From: Eledone cirrhosa
Lineage: Eukaryota
Assembly: GCA_964016885.1 (NCBI GenBank)
Contig: OZ024761.1
Span: 434,001 to 498,000 of the forward strand
Length of the DNA stretch: 64,000 nucleotides
Reading direction: 5' to 3'
Part shown: piece after piece, positions 7,346-7,462 of the stretch
Numbering within the stretch: position 1 is the first letter of the stretch
Layout of the letters: the number at the start of each line of letters is the position of its first letter
The notes under the pieces: model-generated
Told to the model about the DNA's origin: nothing
Databases searched by the model: none
Seen by the model: the letters and a program-made list of their open reading frames with translations, nothing else
Translations under genes and position numbers: made by a program

Positions 7346-7462
7346 TTATTCTGATGAAATGACAGTAAATAATAACATTGAAATATTGAATGTCTGCATA
7401 ACTAAAAGTTTGTAGATAGCTGTTTTAGGTTATGTAACTGTTATAGAAACACGTGTCAATAA
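7346..7462 (+). ncRNA. Type I hammerhead ribozyme with ~90-nt stem II
   Basis: ttatt-CTGATGA-aATGACAGT...ACTGTTATa-GAAAC-acgt-GTC-aataa; stem I ttatt/aataa, palindromic stem III ACACGTGT, GUC triplet. Confidence 0.7.

What the first reader, a model, noticed from the sequence alone, without database searches (positions are those of the whole stretch)
7346..7462. Hammerhead with a hypertrophied ~90-nt stem II
Seen: CTGATGA and GAAAC are separated by 88 nt that fold into one long hairpin (ATGACAGT/ACTGTTAT, TAAC/GTTA, TGTCTGCA/TGTAGATA, AACT/AGTT). Stem I, the palindromic stem III and GUC are intact. Known: Penelope hammerheads are usually minimal with a short stem II, so length-limited searches could miss this one. 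Inference: a long-stem-II subclass, where the hairpin could be an RT-binding or dsRNA/ADAR substrate.
Basis: partly seen in the sequence, partly recalled or inferred. Interest (0 to 1): 0.7.

Follow-up and report, generated by a model that had tools for sequence, protein, structure and literature searches.

The report
Retrotransposon hammerheads with oversized stem II
A jumping gene in this animal genome carries about 2,500 copies of a hammerhead ribozyme motif whose second arm bears a predicted 70-base folded extension, several times longer than in its relatives elsewhere and missed by standard searches; the extension is likely a protein handle on a ribozyme that would cut slowly, but cutting has not been tested.

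Summary
Confirmed. This is a complete type I hammerhead in the terminal repeat of a young Hydra-clade Penelope-like retrotransposon: 2,459 genomic copies and an inverted twin at 3744-3860. The 88-nt spacer is an ordinary 8-bp stem II whose loop is replaced by a 70-nt folded domain. It is not a one-off. A second family sits at 48670. About 12,700 further core matches have 45-106-nt spacers (background roughly 700 per bin). Five families with 78-92-nt domains form one clade. In a sister family, 13 of 22 pairs covary. Hydra-like relatives from other organisms have best spacers of at most 29 nt (42 of 77 loci). Rfam and the published descriptor miss it. An intron explanation found no support. One run shows A-to-I-like changes, but mostly on the antisense strand, which points to the element's inverted repeats rather than stem II. 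Cleavage and the domain's role are untested; integrated copies derive from uncut RNA. The scan noted long stem II in other families of this genome before (e1-9545524, e1-8664355). Verdict: new variant of a known kind.

The parts
7346..7350 (+). Stem I, 5' strand (pairs with 7458-7462)
   Evidence: stem I pairs differ between families and stay paired
7351..7357 (+). Catalytic core box CUGAUGA
7358..7366 (+). A10.1 (mismatched with A7445; A-U in the older subfamily), then the 5' strand of the 8-bp proximal stem II (7359-7366)
   Evidence: pair probabilities 0.78-1.0
7367..7436 (+). 70-nt distal domain replacing loop II: predicted helices 7372-7376/7429-7433, 7378-7385/7421-7428, 7391-7398/7411-7418 and 7400-7403/7407-7410
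   Evidence: covariation shown in a sister family, not in this one
7437..7445 (+). 3' strand of proximal stem II (7437-7444) and A11.1
7446..7457 (+). GAAAC box, 8-nt palindromic stem III/loop III (7449-7456, the predicted dimer contact) and GUC; predicted cut between 7457 and 7458
7458..7462 (+). Stem I, 3' strand
3744..3860 (-). Identical inverted copy of the hammerhead
5288..7616 (+). 5'-truncated Hydra-clade PLE copy: ORF residues 406-773 (stop at 6393), a 3' UTR holding a microsatellite tract, the hammerhead, and the long tail ending about 7616 in (TA)n-type repeats
3704..5289 (-). Inverted, more truncated second copy; a 1586-nt arm 100% complementary to 5917-7502, ending at the short 3' end
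7502..7545 (+). First fixed element end (7502) and the bulged stem just behind it (7507-7512 with 7538-7545)
48666..48782 (+). Second hammerhead, of different sequence, with a 90-nt stem II domain, behind a related PLE ORF (59-63% identical protein)

Best explanation
This is a type I hammerhead motif in the terminal repeat of a young Hydra-clade Penelope-like retrotransposon, with an ordinary 8-bp stem II capped by a predicted 70-nt folded domain; it likely cuts only slowly, as a dimer or with the element's protein, and the extra domain is most likely a protein-binding handle kept by selection on its fold. Shown: the identity, position and copy number of the motif; that the long domain is shared by a clade of families; base-pair covariation of the domain in a sister family; and that integrated copies run through the uncut site. 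Inferred: weak monomer folding; dimerisation through the 8-nt palindrome; loss of the usual loop I-loop II contact; help from the element's protein; and the handle role, for which a recurring 2x1 internal loop (AG or AA opposite G) is the candidate site. In this model reverse transcription starts 45 or about 160 nt behind the cut site and copies uncut RNA, and cleavage is a later or minor step. My confidence is about 0.95 for the identity, 0.65 for slow assisted cleavage and 0.4 for the handle role.
For: Identity: intact 773-aa ORF with RWK, DKT, CxCX5C, CxxC and CxH, matching the Hydra definition; 3593-nt tandem unit, two fixed 3' ends and (TA)n targets; 2,459 copies with core, proximal stem, stem III, GUH and stem I. 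Class: spacer bins 45-74 nt 6,342 hits and 76-106 nt 6,375 hits (non-A start), against reversed-pattern controls of 117 and 61 and 723 hits in the 107-136 bin; five families in one clade at 100/99 support; none of 42 outside relatives has a best spacer above 29 nt. Selection on the fold: 24 copies of family F4/6 are 92.7% paired, 13 of 22 pairs change on both sides, 7 of 13 in the distal helix, 0-1 of 500 shuffles reach these values, and slid controls are much lower. The 2x1 loop is in 16 of 24 F4/6, 5 of 10 F8, 3 of 5 F2 sequences and the 91-92-nt forms of this family, against shuffle rates of 1-12%. Slow cutting: monomer fold +3.8 kcal/mol; the dimer gives -60.1 against 2 x -24.2; PLE min-HHRs cleave weakly and as dimers (PMC4209133); the PAc ribozyme needs its protein and is dispensable for insertion in vitro (PMC11167929).
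Against: No cleavage or binding data exist here. The window's own family shows no compensatory change in the three sequences aligned. The covariation comes from a sister family of related sequences, which the tool warns can beat shuffles without structure; the structure was also predicted from those same sequences. The 2x1 loop was defined after looking at the data, is absent from F3, F5, F7 and F9, lies 14-33 nt from the core depending on family, and is disrupted in the window's own successful 88-nt variant. Domain length and branching vary freely (47-98 nt). In PAc, templates cut back to +20, which removes the core and part of stem II, still insert. Removing the domain in silico leaves stem I and II probabilities unchanged, so the domain is not needed to fold the core.
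Confidence: 0.5

Rival explanations
1. Tolerated accretion: loop II accepts insertions, and selection only keeps them folded out of the way of the core; the domain has no function of its own.
For: Continuum of spacer lengths from 13 to 98 nt in one genome; hairpin in some families and branched in another; the recurring loop is lost in the youngest variant; in-silico removal changes nothing in the core.
Against: Five families 37-66% identical in protein all keep 78-92 nt; there is a sharp drop above about 100 nt; the distal helix covaries as strongly as the proximal one; outside relatives never accrete.
Confidence: 0.27
2. The ribozyme no longer cuts; the fold is kept only as a structural or transcription-start signal, with the RNA starting just 5' of the core and the domain carrying internal promoter sequence.
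For: The commonest young form has an A.A mismatch at 10.1/11.1 where the older subfamily has A-U; no clear genomic footprint of cut RNA; 9 of 24 F4/6 copies have their 5' junction within 13 nt of the core.
Against: Core boxes, GUH, palindromic stem III and paired stem I are kept across ten families with different sequences; U.U and other mismatches at 10.1/11.1 are common in published Hydra hammerheads; junction clustering is absent in F2, F3 and F9; covariation points to RNA structure rather than DNA sequence.
Confidence: 0.12
3. The extension is a 64-nt spliceosomal intron (7365-7428) in loop II, and splicing would leave a 9-bp stem II with a 4-nt loop.
For: GT...AG ends are present and removal gives a clean hairpin; PLE terminal repeats often hold introns, and one abuts the D. 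virilis ribozyme.
Against: 0 spliced copies against 1,999 unspliced matches (PLEs do retain introns, so this is weak); a 215-copy sister subfamily has a much poorer donor that extends the helix instead; donor and acceptor occur together in only 7 of 24 F4/6 sequences and in none of the other eight families; no joint in two lays, and a contig of the edited run crosses the acceptor unspliced; the would-be intron covaries as a helix.
Confidence: 0.06
4. The hairpin is kept as an ADAR or dsRNA substrate that regulates the ribozyme.
For: Run X4 has 15 changes absent from runs X1 and X3, all A>G or T>C, 12 of them inside the domain, against 6 of 35 for differences among genomic copies (Fisher p 2.4e-8).
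Against: 12 of the 15 are T>C, that is, on the antisense strand, whose fold is only -8.3 kcal/mol; the A>G/T>C excess extends over 1.4 kb of the element; the element builds perfect inverted repeats (1586 nt here), a far better substrate; the changes come from a few low-depth contigs of another sample whose library type is not on record.
Confidence: 0.05

Closest known systems
Hammerheads of Hydra-clade Penelope-like elements (Craig et al. 2021, PMC8557442, Files S1 and S2)
   Same: Type I, near the 3' end of a (TA)n-targeted element with C-terminal endonuclease; extra nucleotide on each side of stem II; short stem III starting AC; protein motifs match.
   Different: Published stem II is 3-7 bp with a 3-10-nt loop; here an 8-bp stem carries a 70-nt domain. 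The longest loop 2 in that table is 35 nt, in an unrelated spike-moss PLE-X. The unit here is 3.6 kb against under about 3 kb.
Minimal and palindromic-stem-III hammerheads of metazoan PLEs (Cervera and De la Pena 2014, PMC4209133)
   Same: Helix II of 7-8 bp, helix I of 4-5 bp, palindromic helix III, predicted dimer, position in the terminal repeat.
   Different: No G10.1-C11.1 pair; loop II is replaced by a structured domain far outside the descriptor's limits.
PAc (Poseidon) hammerhead, the one PLE ribozyme tested with its protein (Frangieh et al. 2024, PMC11167929)
   Same: Two internal reverse-transcription starts behind the ribozyme; uncut RNA is the insertion template.
   Different: Different clade; the PAc ORF starts inside stem II, whereas here the start codon is 209 nt behind the cut site.
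Engineered allosteric hammerheads with aptamers grafted on stem II (review PMC2777235)
   Same: Architecture: a folded domain joined to the core through stem II.
   Different: Those are synthetic and have a weak linker; here the proximal stem is stable and no ligand is known.
Clec2 discontinuous hammerhead (as summarised in PMC6765202)
   Same: A natural hammerhead interrupted by a large insert.
   Different: There the insert is several hundred nucleotides in a host 3' UTR; here it is a compact covarying domain in a mobile element.

Membership tests
Type I hammerhead ribozyme | Core boxes CUGANGA and GAAA, A15.1-U16.1 pair, NUH site | tested here: met
Type I hammerhead ribozyme | Three helices that can form around the core, open at stem I | tested here: met
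   (5, 8 and 2-3 bp; 8 bp as a dimer); pairs vary across families and stay paired
Type I hammerhead ribozyme | Paired 10.1-11.1, usually G-C | tested here: not met
   A.A in the window form, A-U in the older subfamily; mismatches here are also common in published Hydra hammerheads, so this lowers expected activity rather than membership
Type I hammerhead ribozyme | Loop I-loop II tertiary contact or pseudoknot | tested here: inconclusive
   None seen by eye; no systematic pseudoknot search was run
Type I hammerhead ribozyme | Self-cleavage after the NUH | not testable with these tools
   Only contigs were available; the genomic junction test was inconclusive
Rfam hammerhead clan / published min-HHR descriptor | Score against Rfam models; stem II 3-7 bp with loop 3-10 nt | tested here: not met
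   No hammerhead hit at E<=10; descriptor limits
Hydra clade of PLEs | Single ORF, RT followed by a C-terminal GIY-YIG-like endonuclease | tested here: met
   773-aa ORF, read by motifs; Pfam gave no hit
Hydra clade of PLEs | RWK, DKT, CxCX5C linker, CxxC and CxH motifs | tested here: met
   against the definition
Hydra clade of PLEs | (TA)n insertion, tandem and inverted terminal repeats, one-sided tail | tested here: met
Hydra clade of PLEs | Phylogenetic placement among published Hydra, Neptune and Nematis proteins | not tested
   The tree holds only families from this genome
Spliceosomal intron | Conserved donor and acceptor and a spliced product | tested here: not met
   the RNA evidence is weak because only contigs were available
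SECIS-bearing selenoprotein PLEs (Naiads) | In-frame UGA codons and an N-terminal endonuclease | tested here: not met
   Open 773-aa frame without stops and a C-terminal endonuclease

The most novel reading that the evidence does not exclude
A natural aptazyme: the stem II domain is a ligand- or protein-sensing module, with the recurring AG/G loop as the binding site, that switches cleavage on or off through the mismatched base of stem II and so sorts element RNA between uncut template and cut messenger. It would have arisen in one host lineage and spread to more than 10,000 copies.
Probability: 0.12. Interest if true: 0.85.

Novelty: new variant of a known kind. Interest (0 to 1): 0.52.

Why it matters
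The role of hammerheads in Penelope-like elements is an open question, and surveys rest on descriptors that allow about 26 nt between the core boxes. Here well over 10,000 motifs in one genome fall outside that range, so counts and 'no hammerhead' calls for some elements may be wrong. The families give a natural series (13 to 98 nt, with covariation) on stem II, the arm that engineers use for allosteric control. The series makes a direct test possible of whether a PLE ribozyme's stem II is a protein handle.

Tried and rejected
Neptune or Naiad assignment: my first reading, dropped for Hydra after the motif check. SECIS element: no in-frame UGA. Intron in loop II: not supported (the donor weight matrix was recalled and approximate). 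Genomic footprint of cut RNA: 5 of 16 copies lacking C17 start at the cut site. However, among 42 distinct places counted by eye in the first 100 of 111 rows, 14 junctions lie at 7458-7461, 11 at 7462-7465 and 8 at 7443-7447, all at TA/AT microhomology with the target, so this is inconclusive; (13 fold-backs) adds nothing clearer. AUG-free leader after cleavage as a translation switch: true for this family (209 nt), but the F2 and F9 leaders hold upstream AUGs, so it is not general. Expression: no RNA holder listed; run X4 only looks like RNA by its change spectrum. The whole-window Rfam scan returned microsatellite-driven miRNA noise. Pfam gave no hit for the PLE protein. Literature: nine searches listed no paper describing a 45-100-nt stem II in PLE hammerheads; Lunse et al. 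on PLE hammerhead variants (PMC5785218) is not held and was not seen, so novelty is not fully established.

Full report
Observation. The motif is present as described: stem I 7346-7350 with 7458-7462, CUGAUGA 7351-7357, 88 nt, GAAAC 7446-7450, an 8-nt palindrome 7449-7456 and GUC ending at 7457. The 88 nt fold into 33 bp in five helices at -24.1 kcal/mol, z -4.1 against 60 shuffles for the domain alone but only -1.98 for the 131-nt stretch. The core pattern with a 70-100-nt spacer occurs three times in the window against 0.05 expected: here, in an identical inverted copy at 3749-3855, and in a different family at 48670-48778.

The element. The hammerhead lies about 950 nt behind the stop of an ORF ending at 6393. 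The window holds a 5'-truncated copy (5288 to about 7616) head to head with a second copy; the two form 1586-nt perfectly complementary arms. Full units elsewhere in the 3.0-Gb genome are about 3593 nt long and carry a 773-aa ORF starting 209 nt behind the predicted cut. The protein has RWK, DKT, CxCX5C, CxxC and CxH, the marks of the Hydra clade (PMC8557442 section 11). All 40 scored hits of the first search were 100% identical, 1,999 places match one 26-mer exactly, and 2,459 keep core, proximal stem, stem III, GUH and the 3' strand of stem I. Copies end at two fixed sites, 45 and about 160 nt behind the cut site, in (TA)n, like the two starts of the PAc element (PMC11167929).

A class, not an accident. 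With loop III fixed as ANNT, genome counts by spacer were 1,571 (15-44 nt), 6,342 (45-74), 6,375 (76-106, first base not A, which excludes this family) and 723 (107-136), with reversed-pattern controls of 117, 117, 61 and 101. The reversed control understates background, because real half-motifs are abundant; the mixed 107-136 bin is the fairer ceiling. Hits from 100 fetched loci, three loci of this family and the window fell into 24 clusters, 12 of them single sequences, several clearly chance. Ten multi-member families keep paired stems I and II with different sequences. Families F1, F2, F4, F5 and F6 (78-92 nt) form one clade at 100/99 in a 12-row tree of linker and endonuclease pieces; F7 (94-98 nt) and F9 (47 nt) lie outside; row F6q probably belongs to a neighbouring element. 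As an outgroup, 42 of 77 Hydra-like loci from metagenome contigs had a hammerhead candidate; the best spacer was at most 26 nt in 40 and 27-29 nt in 2; one weak secondary candidate of 118 nt was not counted as best, and 35 loci gave none. Published Hydra hammerheads have stem II of 3-7 bp with loops of 3-10 nt; the longest loop 2 in that table is 35 nt, in a spike-moss PLE-X. Rfam misses this motif and weakly finds a short one nearby.

Is the domain under selection? The window's family is too young to say: no compensatory change among three sequences. In F4/6, 24 distinct copies are 92.7% paired, 13 of 22 pairs change on both sides, including 7 of 13 in the distal helix, and slid controls fall to 22-46% paired. 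The structure was predicted from these same related sequences, so the shuffle counts are not probabilities. F3 is branched, with 2 of 31 pairs compensatory; F5 and F9 show none. A 2x1 internal loop (AG or AA opposite G, closed by U-A) recurs in F4/6 (16 of 24), F8 (5 of 10), F2 (3 of 5) and the 91-92-nt forms of this family, against shuffle rates of 1-12%. It is absent from F3, F5, F7 and F9, was defined after inspection, and is disrupted by a 3-nt deletion in the window's 88-nt form, where the only hit is an alternative pairing not in the MFE fold.

How it likely works. The proximal stem II forms with probability near 1, but the monomer junction costs 3.8 kcal/mol and stems I and III are under 10% populated; two copies pair through the palindrome at -60.1 against 2 x -24.2 kcal/mol. 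Position 10.1/11.1 is A.A here and A-U in the older subfamily. This fits the weak, dimer-dependent cleavage reported for PLE hammerheads (PMC4209133) and the protein-assisted, dispensable ribozyme of PAc. Integrated copies overwhelmingly run through the uncut site: only 16 places lack C17, five of them junctions at the cut, and nearby junctions follow TA microhomology. I commit to a slow, assisted ribozyme whose added domain is a protein handle. The handle step is inference only, and neutral but fold-constrained accretion is the main rival.

The intron and ADAR ideas. Positions 7365-7428 look like a 64-nt intron whose removal leaves a 9-bp hairpin, but there is no spliced genomic copy, a 215-copy subfamily has a poorer donor, splice signals are not shared across families, and no joint was seen. 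No RNA holder was listed. Run X4, library not on record, has 15 changes absent from X1 and X3, all A>G or T>C, against 6 of 35 among genomic copies, which looks like A-to-I editing. Twelve are T>C, so on the antisense strand, which folds at only -8.3 kcal/mol; they come from a few low-depth contigs of a different sample. The element's long inverted repeats explain this better than stem II does.

Literature seen. PMC8557442: abstract, passages, section 11 and supplement parts 1, 2 and 52 of 59. PMC4209133: parts 1-2 of 4 and passages of supplement file 2; file 1 was not searchable. PMC11167929: parts 1-2 of 4. bioRxiv 10.64898/2026.07.22.740005: part 1 of 5. Passages only: PMC13725137, where a 'long' helix II means 6-8 bp, PMC3088659, PMC7229834, PMC7936874, PMC6765202, PMC2777235 and PMC6962438. 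PMC5785218 was not held. Nine searches listed no description of such long stem II domains in PLEs. Hammerhead numbering is from my own knowledge.

Verdict. The feature is real, abundant and structurally conserved at the class level, and it sits in a known kind of element. It is a new variant of a known kind. The scan had noted long stem II in other families of this genome; this report adds the clade, the outgroup contrast, covariation of the distal helix, and tests of the intron and editing ideas. Interest 0.52.

Noticed in passing
window 48666-48782 (+), ORF remnants 47020-48255: Second Hydra family (F2) with a 90-nt stem II domain; a near full-length tandem unit of 2986 nt is in L141.
   Followed up: yes
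L144, L152, L153, L076: Family F3: non-coding tandem units of about 730-1000 nt, each with a 93-97-nt branched stem II domain and no PLE protein nearby; retrozyme-like or a non-autonomous PLE.
   Followed up: partly
window 7507-7545; L031 3611-3629; L141 leader: A CTC-stem ... stem-TN-GAG bulged hairpin lies a few nt behind each of the two element ends in F1 and, by eye, in F2 (the script recovered only the first F1 copy). Candidate reverse-transcription start signal, noted earlier by others.
   Followed up: partly
L080, L081, L085, L086, L159, L037, L041, L051: 5' junctions and fold-back points cluster just 5' of the core: 9 of 24 F4/6 copies within 13 nt, 6 of 23 F1b within 22 nt (both arms of a pair counted); not in F2, F3 or F9.
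   Followed up: partly
window 9049(-), 9861(+), 26133(+), 33012(-), 33176(+), 38171(-), 38275(+), 41715(-), 50831(-), 51211(+), 52020(-), 53825(-), 53981(+), 61009(-): Many shorter hammerhead-like motifs with spacers of 13-36 nt, several as inverted pairs ending in (TA)n.
   Followed up: no
window 2121-2635 (-): Endonuclease end of a third Hydra-like family (38% identical to F1), cut by an assembly gap; no CUGANGA core was found behind it.
   Followed up: no
window about 10500-23900: A 13-kb array of 54-nt tandem repeats, 92-96% identical, with long open frames on the minus strand.
   Followed up: no
window 55582-59855 (-): LINE with an APE endonuclease and RT ORF of 957 aa and an upstream ORF of 483 aa.
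   Followed up: no
run X5 laid on window 7378-7502: A run labelled as a different organism holds 125 nt identical to this family, ending in (TA)n at the same site; a close relative, transfer or contamination cannot be told apart.
   Followed up: no
L031 3545-3621: A second GT...AG stretch in the leader between the hammerhead and the start codon looks intron-like by eye; no joint was seen.
   Followed up: partly
window 52296-52415, 33048-33140: Near-perfect long hairpins, probably fold-back insertion stubs, that score as miRNA-like in Rfam below the gathering scores.
   Followed up: no
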